A DNA stretch of 64,000 nucleotides from Escherichia coli 042. Lineage in GTDB: Bacteria; Pseudomonadota; Gammaproteobacteria; Enterobacterales; Enterobacteriaceae. Positions 10,147 through 42,322 of the stretch are shown one piece after another. Where the stretch lies: the NCBI RefSeq assembly GCF_000027125.1, contig NC_017626.1. One strand, 5' to 3'. How positions within the stretch are numbered: the stretch's first letter is position 1; every line of letters starts with the position of its first letter. Both the position numbers and the translations under genes were made by a program. The notes beneath the pieces were generated by a model that saw nothing but the letters and a program-made list of their open reading frames with translations, ran no database searches and was not told the origin of the DNA.

Positions 10147-10222
10147 GGCCCTTTAGCTCAGTGGTGAGAGCGAGCGACTCATAATCGCCAGGTCGCTGGT
10201 TCAAATCCAGCAAGGGCCACCA
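10147..10222 (+). tRNA. ileZ: tRNA with CAT anticodon, Ile2 (lysidine)-type or Met
   Basis: 76-nt cloverleaf: acceptor ggccctt/aagggcc, T-arm gctgg-ttcaaat-ccagc, anticodon loop ctCATaa, 3' CCA; close to recalled E. coli tRNA-Ile2. Confidence 0.85.
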
Positions 10223-10229
10223 TCACATA

Positions 10230-10306
10230 CCGCCATTAGCTCATCAGGAAAGAGCGCCAGCCTTCGAAGCTGGTTGCGCGGAGTTCGGGTCCCCGAAGGC
10301 GGTCCA
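10230..10306 (+). tRNA. tRNA-Arg (anticodon TCG as read)
   Basis: 77-nt cloverleaf: anticodon stem ccagc/gctgg with loop ctTCGaa, 3' CCA; one mismatch each in acceptor and T stems. Confidence 0.6.
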
Positions 10307-10319
10307 TTATCTGTATCCT

Positions 10320-10396
10320 GCGTTGTTAGCTCAGCCGGACAGAGCAATTGCCTTCTAAGCAATCGGTCACTGGTTCGAATCCAGTACAACGCGCCA
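10320..10396 (+). tRNA. tRNA-Arg (anticodon TCT)
   Basis: 77-nt cloverleaf: acceptor gcgttgt/acaacgc, T-arm actgg-ttcgaat-ccagt, anticodon loop ctTCTaa, 3' CCA. Confidence 0.85.
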
Positions 10397-11371: not shown

Positions 11372-13225
11372 ATGGCATTTAAACACTATGACGTGGTCAG
11401 GGCGGCATCGCCGTCAGACCTTGCGAAACGACTGACACAAAAACTGAAGGAGGGCTGGCAGCCGTTTGGTAGTCCGGTGGCCATAACCCCTTATACCCTG
11501 ATGCAGGCGATTGCAGCAGAAGGTGATGTGGTCGTCAGTGGTGCAACTGAGCCGGAGTGGTACTACGTCATCGTACTGGCCGGGCAATCCAATGCCATGG
11601 CTTACGGTGAAGGGCTTCCGCTTCCGGATTCATACGATGCGCCCCATCCGCGCATTAAGCAACTGGCCCGTCGTAACACAGTGACTCCCGGTGGTGAAGT
11701 ATGCGTATTTAACGACATCATTCCTGCTGACCATTGTCTGCATGATGTTCAGGATATGAGTACGATTAACCATCCCCGGGCTGACCTGAGCAAAGGGCAG
11801 TACGGCTGTGTCGGACAGGGCTTACATATTGCCAAAAAACTGCTTCCGTATATCCCTAATAATGCGGGGATCCTGCTGGTACCATGCTGTCGTGGTGGTT
11901 CGGCATTCACCCAGGGCACGGAGGGGACATTCAGCGAGTCCACGGGAGCCAGTCAGGATTCGGCTCGCTGGGGAGTGGGTAAGCCGTTATATCAGGATCT
12001 GCTTTTCCGCACGAAGGCAGCATTGCAGAAAAACCCGAAAAACGTTTTGCTGGCGATATGCTGGATGCAGGGGGAATTCGATATGACGAATGCCAGTTAC
12101 GCCCAGCAGCCAGCAGCATTTCTTGCAATGGTACAGCAGTTCCGTGCTGACCTTGCCGGGCTGGCAGCGCAGTGTCACGGTGGAAGTCCGGCATCAGTCC
12201 CCTGGATTTGTGGCGACACGACATACGCGTGGAAACAAGAACACGGTACGCAATATGAAGTGGTATATGGTGCATATAAAGGTAAAGAATCCCAGCAGAT
12301 TTATTTTGTTCCCTTTATGACCGATGGTAGCGGAGTTAATACACCGACAAACAACCCGTCAGAAGATCCTGATATTGCCGGGTCTGGTTATTACGGTTCG
12401 GCATCCCGAACGAACAAAAACTGGGTATCATCAAATCGCCCGACGCATTTCAGCTCATGGGCGCGTCGTGGCATTATTCCCGATCGTATGGCAACTGCTA
12501 TTCTGAACGTAGCCGGTCGCACCTTAGCCTTCATTAGTGGTAAGGCACCGGAAATCAAACCCTCGCCCGGCGGCGACACGCCATTGGGGCCGTCTGAAGA
12601 TGCATCCATACGCACAATCTCCCTGTTGCCGACAGCCGGAGACGCTGCTGCGCAGGGCTGGAGCATTAAGAATGGCGGAATTCAGTTGTCAGATGGTGTA
12701 TTTAAGATCACCAAGCAGAGCAATAAAGCCTGGTCCCTGACGCGCCCGGTGGATGACGCAGTCTCCCTGCTGACACGGGGTGGCAGACTGAGCTGTAAGT
12801 TTCGACTGTCAGGCGCACTGACCAACAATCAGTTCGGTCTGGGAATTTATCTGTATACCGATGTAGCGTTACCTGACGTCGTGGCGATGACCGGGACTGG
12901 TAACCCGTTCCTGATGTCGTTCTTCACCCAGACCACAGACGGCAAACTGAATCTGATGCATCACAAGAAAGCAGGAAACACAAAGTTGGGCGAGTTCGGG
13001 AATTACAGTAACGACTGGCAGACGCTGGAGCTGGTGTTCACCGCCGGCAGTGCCACGGTTACTCCGAAACTGAATGGAGTGGCTGGCCCGGCATTCCAGG
13101 TCATAAAAGACAGTCTGACACTGGGGCTGAATGCGCTGACGCTGACGGATATTACCAAAAATGCAGCGTATGGCGTTGAGATAGAAAGTCTGGTGCTGGA
13201 GATAAATGCACCGGCATCATCATAA
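11372..13225 (+). CDS. Phage NanS-p-like sialate O-acetylesterase (DUF1737 + SGNH hydrolase)
   Basis: 617 aa; N-terminal MAFKHYDVV... and GQSNAMAYGEG esterase motif; occupies the post-tRNA position before the lysis genes. Confidence 0.75.
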   Translation: MAFKHYDVVRAASPSDLAKRLTQKLKEGWQPFGSPVAITPYTLMQAIAAEGDVVVSGATEPEWYYVIVLAGQSNAMAYGEGLPLPDSYDAPHPRIKQLARRNTVTPGGEVCVFNDIIPADHCLHDVQDMSTINHPRADLSKGQYGCVGQGLHIAKKLLPYIPNNAGILLVPCCRGGSAFTQGTEGTFSESTGASQDSARWGVGKPLYQDLLFRTKAALQKNPKNVLLAICWMQGEFDMTNASYAQQPAAFLAMVQQFRADLAGLAAQCHGGSPASVPWICGDTTYAWKQEHGTQYEVVYGAYKGKESQQIYFVPFMTDGSGVNTPTNNPSEDPDIAGSGYYGSASRTNKNWVSSNRPTHFSSWARRGIIPDRMATAILNVAGRTLAFISGKAPEIKPSPGGDTPLGPSEDASIRTISLLPTAGDAAAQGWSIKNGGIQLSDGVFKITKQSNKAWSLTRPVDDAVSLLTRGGRLSCKFRLSGALTNNQFGLGIYLYTDVALPDVVAMTGTGNPFLMSFFTQTTDGKLNLMHHKKAGNTKLGEFGNYSNDWQTLELVFTAGSATVTPKLNGVAGPAFQVIKDSLTLGLNALTLTDITKNAAYGVEIESLVLEINAPASS

Positions 13226-13375: not shown

Positions 13376-13591
13376 ATGTACCAGATGGAAAAAATCACAA
13401 CAGGTGTGTCATACACCACGTCAGCGGTGGGAACGGGCTACTGGTTCCTGCAGTTGCTGGACAGGGTTTCCCCGTCTCAGTGGGCGGCAATAGGCGTGCT
13501 GGGGAGTCTGCTGTTTGGGCTGCTGACATATCTGACTAACCTGTATTTCAAAATCAGAGAGGACCGTCGTAAGGCTGCACGGGGAGAGTAA
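13376..13591 (+). CDS. Holin, S21-type pinholin with dual start
   Basis: 71 aa [10 protein letters not shown]...[24 protein letters not shown]...[13 protein letters not shown] matches recalled phage 21 S; two in-frame Met (M1, M4) as in antiholin/holin pairs. Confidence 0.85.
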
Positions 13592-13595
13592 TTCA

Positions 13596-13911
13596 ATGAC
13601 TCAAAACTATGAACTGATTGTGAAAGGGATCCGCAATTTTGAGAATAAAGTTACGGTAACTTTAGCGTTACGGGACAAAAAAACGCTTTGACGGTGAAAT
13701 TTTTGACCTGGACATCTCGCTGGACCGTGTTGAAGGTGCCGCGCTGGAGTTTTATGAGGCAGCAGCCAGAAGGAGCATCAGACAGGTCTTCCTGGATGTT
13801 GCTGCCGGGTTATGTGAAGGGGACGAGCTGTTGCCAGAAACGCGCCCCTGTTCAGAGGCGCGGTATACCATAAAAATTAACAGTTCTGATAACTCGATTA
13901 CGGGTTGTTAG
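13596..13911 (+). pseudogene. ydfR-like small gene split by a frameshift at an A7 run
   Basis: ATG 13596 reads 31 codons to TGA at 13689-13691; the +1 frame continues open from 13684 to TAG 13909-13911 with no start codon; junction is the A7 tract 13677-13683. Confidence 0.5.
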
Positions 13912-13966
13912 CTTTTTGCAGTTGGCTTTCCAGTATCTTTCATTGGTAGCATCCTGATAAATATCC

Positions 13967-14500
13967 ATGAGCGCAAAAATCAAATACGGCCTGTCAGCTG
14001 CTGTTCTGGCGCTGATTGCTGCAGGCGCGTCTGCTCCTCAGATACTTGACCAGTTTCTGGACGAAAAAGAGGGTAACCACACAACGGCATACCGCGATGG
14101 TTCCGGCATCTGGACCATCTGTCGGGGGGCCACGATGGTGGATGGAAAACCCGTTTTTCCCGGTATGAAACTGTCGAAGGAAAAATGCGACCAGGTCAAC
14201 GCCATTGAGCGTGATAAGGCGCTGGCATGGGTGGAGAAAAACATCAAAGTGCCATTGAGCGAACCCCAGAAAGCGGGGATCGCGTCATTCTGTCCGTACA
14301 ACATTGGTCCCGGTAAGTGTTTCCCGTCGACGTTTTATAAACGAATTAATGCAGGTGATCGCAGGGGAGCGTGTGAGGCGATTCGCTGGTGGATTAAGGA
14401 CGGTGGCAGAGACTGCCGTATTCGTTCAAACAACTGCTACGGTCAGGTATCCCGTCGTGACCAGGAGAGCGCGCTGGCGTGCTGGGGTATCGACAGATAA
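13967..14500 (+). CDS. SAR endolysin (phage lysozyme, R21-like)
   Basis: 177 aa; N-terminal signal-anchor LSAAVLALIAAGASAP followed by lysozyme fold, T4-lysozyme-like (GH24) family as recalled for R21. Confidence 0.85.
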   Translation: MSAKIKYGLSAAVLALIAAGASAPQILDQFLDEKEGNHTTAYRDGSGIWTICRGATMVDGKPVFPGMKLSKEKCDQVNAIERDKALAWVEKNIKVPLSEPQKAGIASFCPYNIGPGKCFPSTFYKRINAGDRRGACEAIRWWIKDGGRDCRIRSNNCYGQVSRRDQESALACWGIDR

Positions 14501-14659: not shown

Positions 14660-14797
14660 GTGTTTGATTTTAGCAAACTGATTCGGGAGATTCGAGTGAT
14701 GGCTGAAAAATTATCCACCTGGAAGTTCATTCTTATCTGGCTGGTGTTTGTGATTATGGCCTCCGGTTATTTCATCGGTCAGATACGCTGGTGGTGA
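14660..14797 (+). CDS. Possible small membrane protein between R and Rz
   Basis: GTG 14660 (or ATG 14699) after GGAG; hydrophobic [20 protein letters not shown]; stop overlaps Rz start. Confidence 0.25.
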
Positions 14798-14798
14798 A

Positions 14799-15263
14799 AT
14801 GAACCGCGTACTGTGCGTGGTCATCATTGCCCTGCTGGTGGCCTGTGGTGCGCTTAGTCTGGGGCTGAATCATTACCGTGATAACGCCATTACCTACAAA
14901 GCCCAGCGCGACAAAAATGTCAGAGAACTGAAGCTGGCGAACGCGGCAATTACTGACATGCAGATGCGTCAGCGTGATGTTGCTGCGCTCGATGCAAAAT
15001 ACACGAAGGAGTTAGCTGATGCGAAAGCTGAAAATGATGCTCTGCGTGATGATGTTGCCGCTGGTCGTCGTCGGTTGCACATCAAAGCAGTCTGTCAGTC
15101 AGTGCGTGAAGCCACCACCGCCTCCGGCGTGGATAATGCAGCCTCCCCCCGACTGGCAGACACCGCTGAACGGGATTATTTCACCCTCAGAGCGCGACTG
15201 ATAATAATGCAAAAACAACTTGAAGGGGCACAGCTATACATTCGAGAGCAATGCCTCAGATAA
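14799..15263 (+). CDS. Rz: Rz i-spanin
   Basis: 154 aa, near-identical over most of its length to recalled lambda Rz ([17 protein letters not shown]...). Confidence 0.9.
15019..15201 (+). CDS. Rz1: Rz1 o-spanin lipoprotein, embedded in Rz in +1 frame
   Basis: 60 aa with lipobox VVGC and proline-rich [20 protein letters not shown] as in lambda Rz1. Confidence 0.85.
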
Positions 15264-41549: not shown

Positions 41550-42322
41550 TCATTGGGATTATGCCGCAGACACGTCGTATGCAGGAACGTGCTGCGGTTA
41601 GTTTGTGAGCTTTCGATAGTGGTTGTTATTTTTGCCCTTATTTGTTCCGGAGGCCATGGTTCAATGGTCCGTCTGCCCCCTGTGGTGATGTCAGCAAAAT
41701 CAGCCACTGCGCGAACCACAATAGCCCGGGAAGATGCTGAAGATCACCAGGTAAAGCTGTCAGCGCAGAAACTGGAAGAACTGCTCGCATCAATGGTTAA
41801 GGATGAGGTTGATCGCAATGATGGGATTTATTGACGTCAGCGAGAGCAGAAGGAAGAACTGAATAACCTGAATGATTTACGCTCAATCAGAGCGATGATG
41901 ATTGGCAGTAATTAGCGGTCAATTTCGGTTTTTTTGGCTGTGCGCTCCCCGCCCAGCATTGCGCGTCAATTAGCCCCAAAAAAACGAAAAAGTTACAATC
42001 AAGTAAAAAATTCCTTCTGCAAAACTAAAAAAGATTTCAATAAAATCAGACAGTTAAAAGCATAAAAAAAGGTACAAAAAAAACATCTCAAAGTCTTGTT
42101 TTTTGCTTCAAATACAATTGGTTATTGTGTTTTTTGAAACCTACCAGTCTGGTACATGGATATCGATACCACCGCCAATTATAAGCTGGGCGGTGCACAG
42201 CAACACGATAGCGTACGCCTCGATCCGTGGGTGTTTATGTTCTCAGCAGGATATCGTTTTTAATTCCGCACAAAAACGACCCCGTAATATACGGGGTCAA
42301 TAAGGACATGGTATAAAGGGTA

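What the first reader, a model, noticed from the sequence alone, without database searches (positions are those of the whole stretch)
13596..13911. Holin-endolysin spacer holds a ydfR-like gene split at an A7 homopolymer
ATG 13596 opens a 31-codon frame that stops at 13689-13691 right after a run of seven A (13677-13683). The +1 frame continues without stops or start codons to 13909-13911. Removing one A would give a single ~105-aa protein in the position where Qin carries ydfR, as I recall. This could be a pseudogene, a sequencing error in the homopolymer, or slippage-dependent expression.
Basis: partly seen in the sequence, partly recalled or inferred. Interest (0 to 1): 0.45.

Follow-up and report, generated by a model that had tools for sequence, protein, structure and literature searches.

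The report
Frameshifted ydfR pseudogene in prophage
A small accessory gene of unknown function (ydfR) in the lysis region of an E. coli prophage has been broken by one extra A in a run of six; this is an ordinary recent mutation that genome annotators already flag as a pseudogene.

Summary
ATG 13596 opens a 31-codon frame through an A7 run (13677-13683) to TGA 13689-13691, and the +1 frame stays open to TAG 13909-13911. Deleting one A gives a 104-aa protein that matches Pfam DUF1327 (E 5.7e-39) and phrog_2735 end to end. It lies between a class II holin and an endolysin, as ydfR does in K-12 Qin.

E. coli 55989 carries the same 326 nt with A6 and an intact gene. Phage mEp460 has AAAAAC.

A 67-nt probe matched 3,293 complete E. 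coli records:
- 21 have the exact A7 sequence.
- 10 have 67-nt matches with one mismatch; the one I read has A7.
- About 1,870 have the A6 form.
- 2 have A5 and none has A8.
- All 21 matching phage records are in frame.

All 18 A7 loci I fetched are annotated by PGAP as "YdfR family protein, frameshifted". They fall in four different lysis-cassette backgrounds.

I conclude that this is a real, recent, recurrent +1 slippage mutation in a dispensable accessory gene. It is not an isolated sequencing error and not a conserved recoding signal.

One curiosity: the premature stop lies in CTT TGA C, the prfB +1 shift heptamer, but without its Shine-Dalgarno stimulator. Trace rescue is possible but untested. 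Already known; low interest.

The parts
13376..13591 (+). Class II (phage-21-type) holin, 71 aa, intact. It ends 4 nt before the ydfR start.
   Evidence: PHROG holin families phrog_9876 and phrog_20. PGAP 'class II holin family protein' WP_000284510.1 at collinear coordinates in CB7453.
13596..13911 (+). ydfR-family (DUF1327) gene, 316 nt, inactivated by a +1 A frameshift (pseudogene).
   Evidence: PGAP annotates the identical coordinates in CB7453 and strain 729 as 'YdfR family protein, frameshifted'.
13596..13691 (+). Frame-0 remnant: 31 codons plus TGA, which is YdfR residues 1-29 followed by Thr-Leu. A GGAG Shine-Dalgarno sequence lies 9 nt upstream of the ATG.
   Evidence: The structure model places the break just after beta-strand 2.
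13677..13683 (+). A7 homopolymer. Intact relatives have A6 (GAC AAA AAA CGC, D-K-K-R), AAAAAC (mEp460) or AAAGAA (K-12).
13684..13911 (+). Rest of the ydfR coding sequence, now in the +1 frame (residues 30-104). It holds most of the family-invariant residues: F31, G33, E34, I35, D37, G47, A48, L50-E54, A57, V68, A69, L72.
13686..13692 (+). CTT TGA C, the frame-0 premature stop in the same heptamer as the prfB +1 shift site. A +1 slip here would restore the YdfR frame with R30-F31 replaced by T-L. No Shine-Dalgarno-like element lies 3 nt upstream, and the E-site codon would be ACG.
   Evidence: Read directly from the sequence. Shift-site properties from PMC5009743 and PMC2377451. Activity was not tested.
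13967..14500 (+). Endolysin, 177 aa, intact. It has a hydrophobic N-terminus that looks like a signal-anchor-release (SAR) domain.
   Evidence: phrog_7 endolysin E 5.8e-63. PGAP 'lysozyme' WP_001274711.1. The SAR reading comes from inspecting the sequence MSAKIKYGLSAAVLALIAAGASAPQI.
14799..15263 (+). Rz-like spanin, intact, with an embedded Rz1-like ORF at 15019-15201.
   Evidence: phrog_13 Rz-like spanin E 1.2e-73. The embedded ORF is listed.

Best explanation
This is a genuine, evolutionarily recent frameshift mutation. Replication slippage added one A to an A6 run (codons Lys28-Lys29) of a ydfR-family (DUF1327) accessory gene in the late/lysis operon of a lambdoid prophage integrated in ompW. 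Translation from ATG 13596 now ends at TGA 13689. The 31-residue peptide holds only the first two predicted beta-strands and lacks most conserved residues, so the gene is a pseudogene. The neighbouring holin, endolysin and spanin genes are intact, and nothing indicates that the mutation affects lysis. Shown: the tract length, the frame break, family membership of the repaired ORF, the A6 state in near-identical relatives, and the rarity and recurrence of A7. Inferred: that the truncated product has no function, and that ydfR is dispensable for the phage.
For: Searches show the anatomy. In one search, E. coli 55989 is identical over 326 nt except for A6 and has an intact 104-aa gene (WP_000193273.1); plaque-forming phage mEp460 has AAAAAC and an intact gene. 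The repaired protein is a full-length DUF1327 and phrog_2735 member. One search puts most invariant family residues downstream of the break. In one search, 21 records are exact A7, 10 are 67-nt matches with one mismatch (A7 confirmed in the one I read), and about 1,870 have the 66-nt A6 form, out of 3,293 matching records. Searches found A5 in 2 records and A8 in none. One search found 0 of 21 phage records with A7. In some searches, all 18 A7 loci fetched are annotated 'frameshifted' by PGAP, and they lie in four different cassette backgrounds, which fits a slippage hotspot. Searches show that the window and CB7453 share the A7 prophage with 19 SNPs over 33 kb while their chromosomal flanks differ at 76 sites in 8 kb. 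The allele is therefore inherited or transmitted, not a one-off artefact. Relatives with DKE (AAA GAA; K-12) have no A6 run at this position, so the A6 run is confined to the DKK alleles.
Against: I could not inspect reads for this window, so an assembly error here cannot be formally excluded. The premature stop sits in CTT TGA C, and the A7 run itself allows Lys-tRNA +1 re-pairing, so some full-length protein may still be made (untested). A7 (about 31 records) is commoner than A5 (2). That could mean the A7 state is better tolerated, but it could equally reflect clonal sampling.
Confidence: 0.85

Rival explanations
1. Leaky 'pseudo-pseudogene'. The A7 allele would still deliver biologically useful amounts of near-wild-type YdfR by one of three routes: a +1 ribosomal slip at CTT TGA C (13686-13692, giving ...DKKTL-DGEIF...), a +1 slip of Lys-tRNA on the A run (giving the wild-type sequence), or transcriptional slippage producing A6 mRNA.
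For: The frame-0 stop context is exactly the prfB shift heptamer CUU UGA C. The NAR 2016 review (PMC5009743) calls CUU_U by far the most efficient +1 shift site and says the C after UGA disfavours termination. Both candidate shift sites lie within 12 nt of the lesion, so the product would differ from wild type by at most 2 residues. Unprogrammed frameshift suppression of about 1% has been measured in E. coli (PMC10861913). A7 alleles outnumber A5 alleles.
Against: There is no Shine-Dalgarno-like element 3 nt upstream of CTT; the nearest GGGA is 10 nt away. PMC2377451 reports that this spacing is critical and that SD mutations greatly reduce shifting. The E-site codon would be ACG, with G:C pairs at positions 2 and 3, which is that paper's lowest-efficiency class. 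[quoted passage not shown] The local RNA has no unusual structure (z = +0.63). The arrangement is not conserved: it is rare in genomes and absent from phage records. CGC TTT GAC is simply the R-F-D coding sequence of intact alleles.
Confidence: 0.08
2. Homopolymer sequencing or assembly error in the source genome. The real sequence would be A6 and the gene intact.
For: Single-base homopolymer indels are a typical long-read consensus error. Reads for this window are not available to me. The A6 allele is about 60 times commoner.
Against: The identical 411-nt A7 allele occurs in 8 other complete-genome records, and the 67-nt A7 core in 21, with A7 also confirmed in one of 10 further one-mismatch records. 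These include three isolates of clone 729, three of the 33F4 clone, and strains from Korea, Denmark, Germany, the USA, Switzerland, China, Japan and South Africa. The nearest relative of the window (CB7453, collinear from 8962 to 49961) has the same A7.
Confidence: 0.05
3. Phase-variable (contingency) switch. The A tract would be selected to toggle ydfR ON and OFF at high frequency.
For: The frameshift has arisen in, or spread to, four cassette backgrounds, and both +1 (A7) and -1 (A5) variants exist.
Against: The tract is only 6-7 nt long. OFF states are about 1% of records. Clonal sets are uniform (729 x3, 33F4 x3, and the 10 OkiPb records give the same one-mismatch match) rather than mixed. 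Many family members have an interrupted tract, AAAGAA or AAAAAC, with no sign that a run is maintained.
Confidence: 0.02

Closest known systems
YdfR of the E. coli K-12 Qin cryptic prophage (P76160; Pfam DUF1327 / PF07041; NCBI 'YdfR family protein')
   Same: It has the same family (PF07041 E 5.7e-39 after repair) and the same place in the lysis cassette, with the same 4-nt gap after the holin. The conserved N-terminal core of about 75 residues is shared. K-12 YdfR has been reported to bind the catalytic N-terminal domain of RNase E through residues 1-72 and possibly to bind RNA (PMC13232886). Its biological role is otherwise unknown.
   Different: The window copy is frameshifted after codon 29. 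It has K29 (AAA) where K-12 has E29 (GAA), which is what makes the A run. Its C-terminal tail is the 104-aa '...PCSEARYTIKINSSDNSITGC' variant rather than the K-12 tail. Its stop lies 55 nt before the endolysin start, whereas in K-12 it overlaps that start.
RefSeq/PGAP 'YdfR family protein, frameshifted' pseudogenes (e.g. QQA32_RS14510 in APEC E19035, ACZ0NG_RS18925 in CB7453)
   Same: The sequence is identical over at least 411 nt, including A7, and the neighbouring genes are the same.
   Different: Nothing at the locus differs. The window comes from a different but related host: the prophage part differs from CB7453 at 19 sites and the chromosomal flank at 76.
prfB (release factor 2) programmed +1 frameshift site
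   Same: The heptamer CUU UGA C is identical, and a +1 shift there would restore the productive frame (sequence; PMC5009743).
   Different: It lacks the Shine-Dalgarno stimulator 3 nt upstream, is not conserved among homologues, and arose as a by-product of a one-base insertion into R-F-D coding sequence. It works like a possible 'shifty stop' at best and is not a member of that class.
'Pseudo-pseudogenes' rescued by transcriptional slippage on A/T runs (Baranov et al. 2005, PMC1088944)
   Same: An ORF is disrupted by a one-base change in an A run whose length varies between strains.
   Different: Those cases involve runs of about 9 or more. This run is 7, below the length at which slippage is evident.

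Membership tests
YdfR / DUF1327 (PF07041) | Sequence match to the family profile over its whole length | tested here: met
   After removing one A, PF07041 matches residues 1-96 to model positions 1-90 of 93 at E 5.7e-39, and phrog_2735 matches 1-104 to 1-105 of 105 at E 3.5e-55. There are 260 homologues, all Escherichia, Shigella or Salmonella.
YdfR / DUF1327 (PF07041) | Position between the class II holin and the endolysin of a lambdoid lysis cassette | tested here: met
   Window order is holin 13376-13591, ydfR 13596-13911, endolysin 13967-14500. The same order is seen in K-12 Qin, E. coli 55989 and phage mEp460.
YdfR / DUF1327 (PF07041) | Uninterrupted open reading frame (a functional member) | tested here: not met
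   Frame 0 stops at 13689-13691 after 31 codons. It belongs to the family by descent but is a pseudogene.
Programmed +1 ribosomal frameshift, prfB type | Shift site CUU U followed by a poorly terminating stop (UGA C) | tested here: met
   CTT TGA C lies at 13686-13692 in frame 0.
Programmed +1 ribosomal frameshift, prfB type | Internal Shine-Dalgarno-like stimulator about 3 nt upstream of the shift codon | tested here: not met
   The upstream sequence is GGGACAAAAAAACG-CTT. The only G-rich element ends 10 nt before CTT. The spacing requirement is from PMC2377451.
Programmed +1 ribosomal frameshift, prfB type | The two-frame arrangement is conserved among homologues | tested here: not met
   A7 is in about 31 of 3,293 E. 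coli records and 0 of 21 phage records. The rest are in frame.
Programmed +1 ribosomal frameshift, prfB type | Measured production of the trans-frame protein | not testable with these tools
   This needs a reporter assay or mass spectrometry.
Transcriptional-slippage-dependent gene | A or T run long enough for efficient RNA polymerase slippage (about 9 or more in most bacteria) | tested here: not met
   The run is 7. The threshold is from PMC1088944.
Transcriptional-slippage-dependent gene | Run length and ORF overlap conserved among homologues | tested here: not met
   Homologues have A6, A5C or AAAGAA and a single ORF.
Phase-variable contingency locus | ON and OFF tract lengths mixed within clones or lineages | tested here: not met
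   Clonal sets are uniform: 729 x3 and 33F4 x3 are all exact A7, and the 10 OkiPb records give the same one-mismatch match. Within-culture heterogeneity could not be tested.
Phage-21-type pinholin / SAR-endolysin lysis cassette (context) | Class II holin, endolysin with an N-terminal hydrophobic SAR-like segment, and nested Rz/Rz1 spanins | tested here: met
   PHROG holin, endolysin and Rz-like spanin hits, plus the embedded 60-aa ORF at 15019-15201. The SAR character was judged by eye from the N-terminal sequence only.

The most novel reading that the evidence does not exclude
The A7 allele is not dead. Because the extra A places the premature stop in the prfB-type shifty context CTT TGA C, directly after a slippery A run, a small fraction of ribosomes would return to the YdfR frame within two codons of the lesion and make near-wild-type protein. 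This would make A7 a tolerated low-expression allele, and would explain why it has arisen or spread in four cassette backgrounds and outnumbers the A5 allele.
Probability: 0.08. Interest if true: 0.3.

Novelty: already known. Interest (0 to 1): 0.1.

Why it matters
It matters little by itself. For annotation, 13596-13911 should be called a single frameshifted ydfR pseudogene, not two small ORFs. The case illustrates a short A6 run acting as a recurrent slippage hotspot in a mosaic prophage gene. It also suggests that ydfR is dispensable for keeping the prophage, and probably for spreading it. [quoted passage not shown] Naturally paired A6 and A7 prophages that are otherwise identical, such as 55989 versus this window over the gene, would serve as ready-made isogenic material for testing what YdfR does during lytic growth.

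Tried and rejected
- **NCBIfam.** The scan of the repaired and truncated proteins gave no family hits. The first attempts failed because my holin coordinates were wrong.
- **Structure.** An AlphaFold2 model from a 21-sequence alignment had only moderate confidence (pLDDT 66.9): three strands followed by a long helix. Foldseek against the PDB gave nothing significant (best E 0.1, TM below 0.35), so the fold gave no clue to function.
- **RNA stimulator.** Folding 13660-13780 as RNA showed no unusual stability (z = +0.63), so I rejected a structured frameshift stimulator.
- **A8 allele.** No full-length exact match exists.
- **Second copy.** The window has no second ydfR copy.
- **C-terminal fragment.** Separate expression by re-initiation is unlikely, because the +1 frame has no ATG or GTG and only one TTG, at 13831.
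- **Source genome.** I could not identify it. The nearest record is CB7453, collinear from 8962 with 95 mismatches, but it is not identical and its early region differs.
- **Shift efficiency.** I found no published figure for CUU UGA C without the Shine-Dalgarno element in the papers I could read.
- **One origin or several.** The data cannot separate a single A7 origin spread by recombination from several independent slippage events. Four backgrounds with private SNPs favour recurrence.

Full report
**Observation**

- ATG 13596 follows a GGAG Shine-Dalgarno sequence and lies 4 nt after the holin stop.
- The frame-0 product is MTQNYELIVKGIRNFENKVTVTLALRDKKTL.
- The A7 run is at 13677-13683, where codons 28 and 29 are AAA AAA and codon 30 is ACG.
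- The stop is TGA 13689-13691.
- The +1 frame is open from 13666 to TAG 13909-13911. It contains no ATG or GTG and a single TTG at 13831.

A7 runs are common in this window: there are 13 A7 and 8 T7 runs in 64 kb. What is not chance is that the two frames join at the run into one family member. tblastn with the repaired protein finds residues 1-29 and 28-104 in two frames at 100% identity (E 5.5e-54).

**What it is**

With one A removed, the ORF encodes 104 aa. This protein matches Pfam DUF1327 (PF07041) over residues 1-96 at E 5.7e-39 and phrog_2735 end to end at E 3.5e-55.

The surrounding genes form a phage-21-type lysis cassette:
- class II holin at 13376-13591
- endolysin at 13967-14500
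- Rz-like spanin at 14799-15263, with a nested Rz1-like ORF at 15019-15201

K-12 Qin has the same order, essQ-ydfR-rrrQ-rzpQ/rzoQ, with the same 4-nt holin-ydfR gap.

The cassette belongs to a lambdoid prophage inserted in ompW, beside yciE and the trp operon.

**Comparison with relatives**

Across 326 nt, E. coli 55989 differs from the window only in having A6 (GAC AAA AAA CGC, which is D-K-K-R), and it has an intact 104-aa gene. The plaque-forming phage mEp460 has AAAAAC (D-K-N-R) and is also intact. K-12 has AAAGAA (D-K-E-R). In the wider family, residue 29 is E, K or N, while K28 is invariant. The A6 run is therefore confined to the K29 alleles, and the window carries that run plus one more A.

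Most invariant family residues are now out of frame: F31, G33, E34, I35, D37, G47, A48, L50-E54, A57, V68, A69 and L72. In a moderate-confidence model (pLDDT 66.9), the break falls just after the second of three beta-strands that precede a long helix.

**Frequency**

I probed complete E. coli genomes with 65-68-nt sequences centred on the tract.

| Tract state | Records |
|---|---|
| Exact A7 | 21 |
| 67-nt match with one mismatch (OkiPb series; the one I read has A7) | 10 |
| A6 (66-nt span) | about 1,870 |
| More divergent (90-95% band, not inspected) | most of the remainder |
| Exact A5 | 2 |
| Exact A8 | 0 |
| All records matching the 67-nt probe | 3,293 |

None of the 21 matching phage records has A7; all are in frame.

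I fetched 18 A7 loci, and PGAP annotates every one as "YdfR family protein, frameshifted". They fall into four cassette backgrounds:

| Background | Cassette | Strains |
|---|---|---|
| A | SASA esterase, holin WP_000284510, 316-nt allele | window, CB7453, APEC E19035, clone 729, HCP5S3_I4, GPEC505-623 |
| B | tolA-like gene, essD holin, 316-nt allele | 13P477T, E371 |
| C | Q, tRNA Ile-Lys-Thr-Gly, 352-nt allele | AR_0089, S51, QA-1986 630, FDN-4, VTB96937v, 33F4 clone, GPEC172, GPEC102, OkiPb |
| D | SASA esterase, 352-nt allele | TUM10008 |

Some of these alleles carry private SNPs. That pattern fits recurrent slippage at a small hotspot, although a single origin spread by recombination inside this mosaic gene cannot be excluded.

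**Real mutation or artefact**

I cannot see reads for this window. However, the allele recurs in independently sequenced strains from many countries and hosts, including clonal triplets.

The nearest relative, CB7453, is collinear with the window from 8962 to 49961 and has the same A7. The two differ at only 19 sites across the 33-kb prophage part but at 76 sites in the 8-kb chromosomal flank. The A7-bearing prophage, or its lysis module, has therefore been inherited or moved between hosts while carrying the lesion. This also suggests that ydfR is dispensable.

**Could it be expressed by slippage**

A conserved recoding signal is ruled out by the rarity of A7 and by the in-frame state of every phage copy. 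Three further points argue against efficient rescue:
- The local RNA shows no unusual structure (z = +0.63).
- No stimulatory element is present near the stop.

One detail is worth recording. The extra A places the frame-0 stop in CTT TGA C (13686-13692), which is the same heptamer as the prfB +1 shift site. The NAR 2016 review describes CUU_U as by far the most efficient +1 shift site and says the C after UGA weakens termination (PMC5009743). A +1 slip there would give ...DKKTL-DGEIF..., which differs from wild type at two residues. A +1 slip of Lys-tRNA on the A run would give the wild-type sequence.

The prfB stimulator, a Shine-Dalgarno-like sequence 3 nt upstream, is absent here. The E-site codon would be ACG, the least favourable class in PMC2377451. 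The heptamer is simply the R-F-D coding sequence of intact alleles. I therefore expect trace rescue at most, of the order seen for unprogrammed suppression (about 1% in one measured case, PMC10861913). None of this was tested.

**Function of the family**

The function of the family is unknown. The only experimental lead I found is a 2026 report on K-12 YdfR. It binds the catalytic N-terminal domain of RNase E in two-hybrid and pull-down assays through residues 1-72, and it co-purifies with RNA (PMC13232886). The 31-residue product here would lack most of that region. The fold search gave no significant match.

**Verdict**

This is an ordinary, recent, recurrent +1 homopolymer frameshift that has turned a dispensable prophage accessory gene into a pseudogene. 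Identical RefSeq loci are already annotated this way. Novelty: already known. Interest: low.

Noticed in passing
window 13686-13692: The premature stop created by the extra A lies in CTT TGA C, the same heptamer as the prfB programmed +1 shift site. A slip there would restore the YdfR frame two codons after the lesion. The prfB Shine-Dalgarno stimulator is absent.
   Followed up: partly
window 10147-10396: Three tRNA genes lie downstream of the Q antiterminator and a DNA methyltransferase. ARAGORN calls them Met(CAT), Arg(TCG) and Arg(TCT). PGAP labels the first tRNA-Ile at collinear coordinates in strain 729 and CB7453. From memory, this resembles the ileZ-argN-argO cluster of Stx-like lambdoid phages.
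   Followed up: no
window 11372-13225: A 617-aa SASA-family carbohydrate esterase sits directly upstream of the holin in the late operon. PGAP names it in identical loci. From memory, it resembles the NanS-p esterases of Stx phages.
   Followed up: no
window 8962-49961 compared with L012 (CB7453): The prophage part differs from CB7453 at only 19 sites in about 33 kb, with none between 10303 and 16607. The adjoining yciE-trp chromosomal flank differs at 76 sites in about 8 kb. The region before 8962 is mosaic (89-97% identity). This suggests the prophage moved between hosts or the flank recombined.
   Followed up: partly
window about 42138-42263: A truncated ompW remnant lies at the right prophage end (annotated at these coordinates in the collinear CB7453 record). 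The prophage therefore interrupts ompW next to yciE, yciF, yciG and trpA-E.
   Followed up: no
window 14660-14797: A small ORF of 45 aa (WP_000459345.1 in APEC E19035) with a hydrophobic segment lies between the endolysin and Rz and ends 1 nt before the Rz start. Only some genome annotations include it, and its function is unknown.
   Followed up: no
proteins P0005, P0002, P0107, P0079, P0114: The database holds other damaged ydfR variants: holin-YdfR fusion proteins (139 and 175 aa), an 84-aa form frameshifted further downstream, an 80-aa form with an in-frame deletion, and 69-aa partial forms. The gene appears to decay in several different ways across E. coli prophages.
   Followed up: no
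window 13912-13966: The 55-nt spacer before the endolysin ATG has no obvious Shine-Dalgarno sequence. In K-12 Qin the ydfR stop overlaps the rrrQ start instead. I did not examine whether early termination of ydfR translation affects endolysin translation.
   Followed up: no
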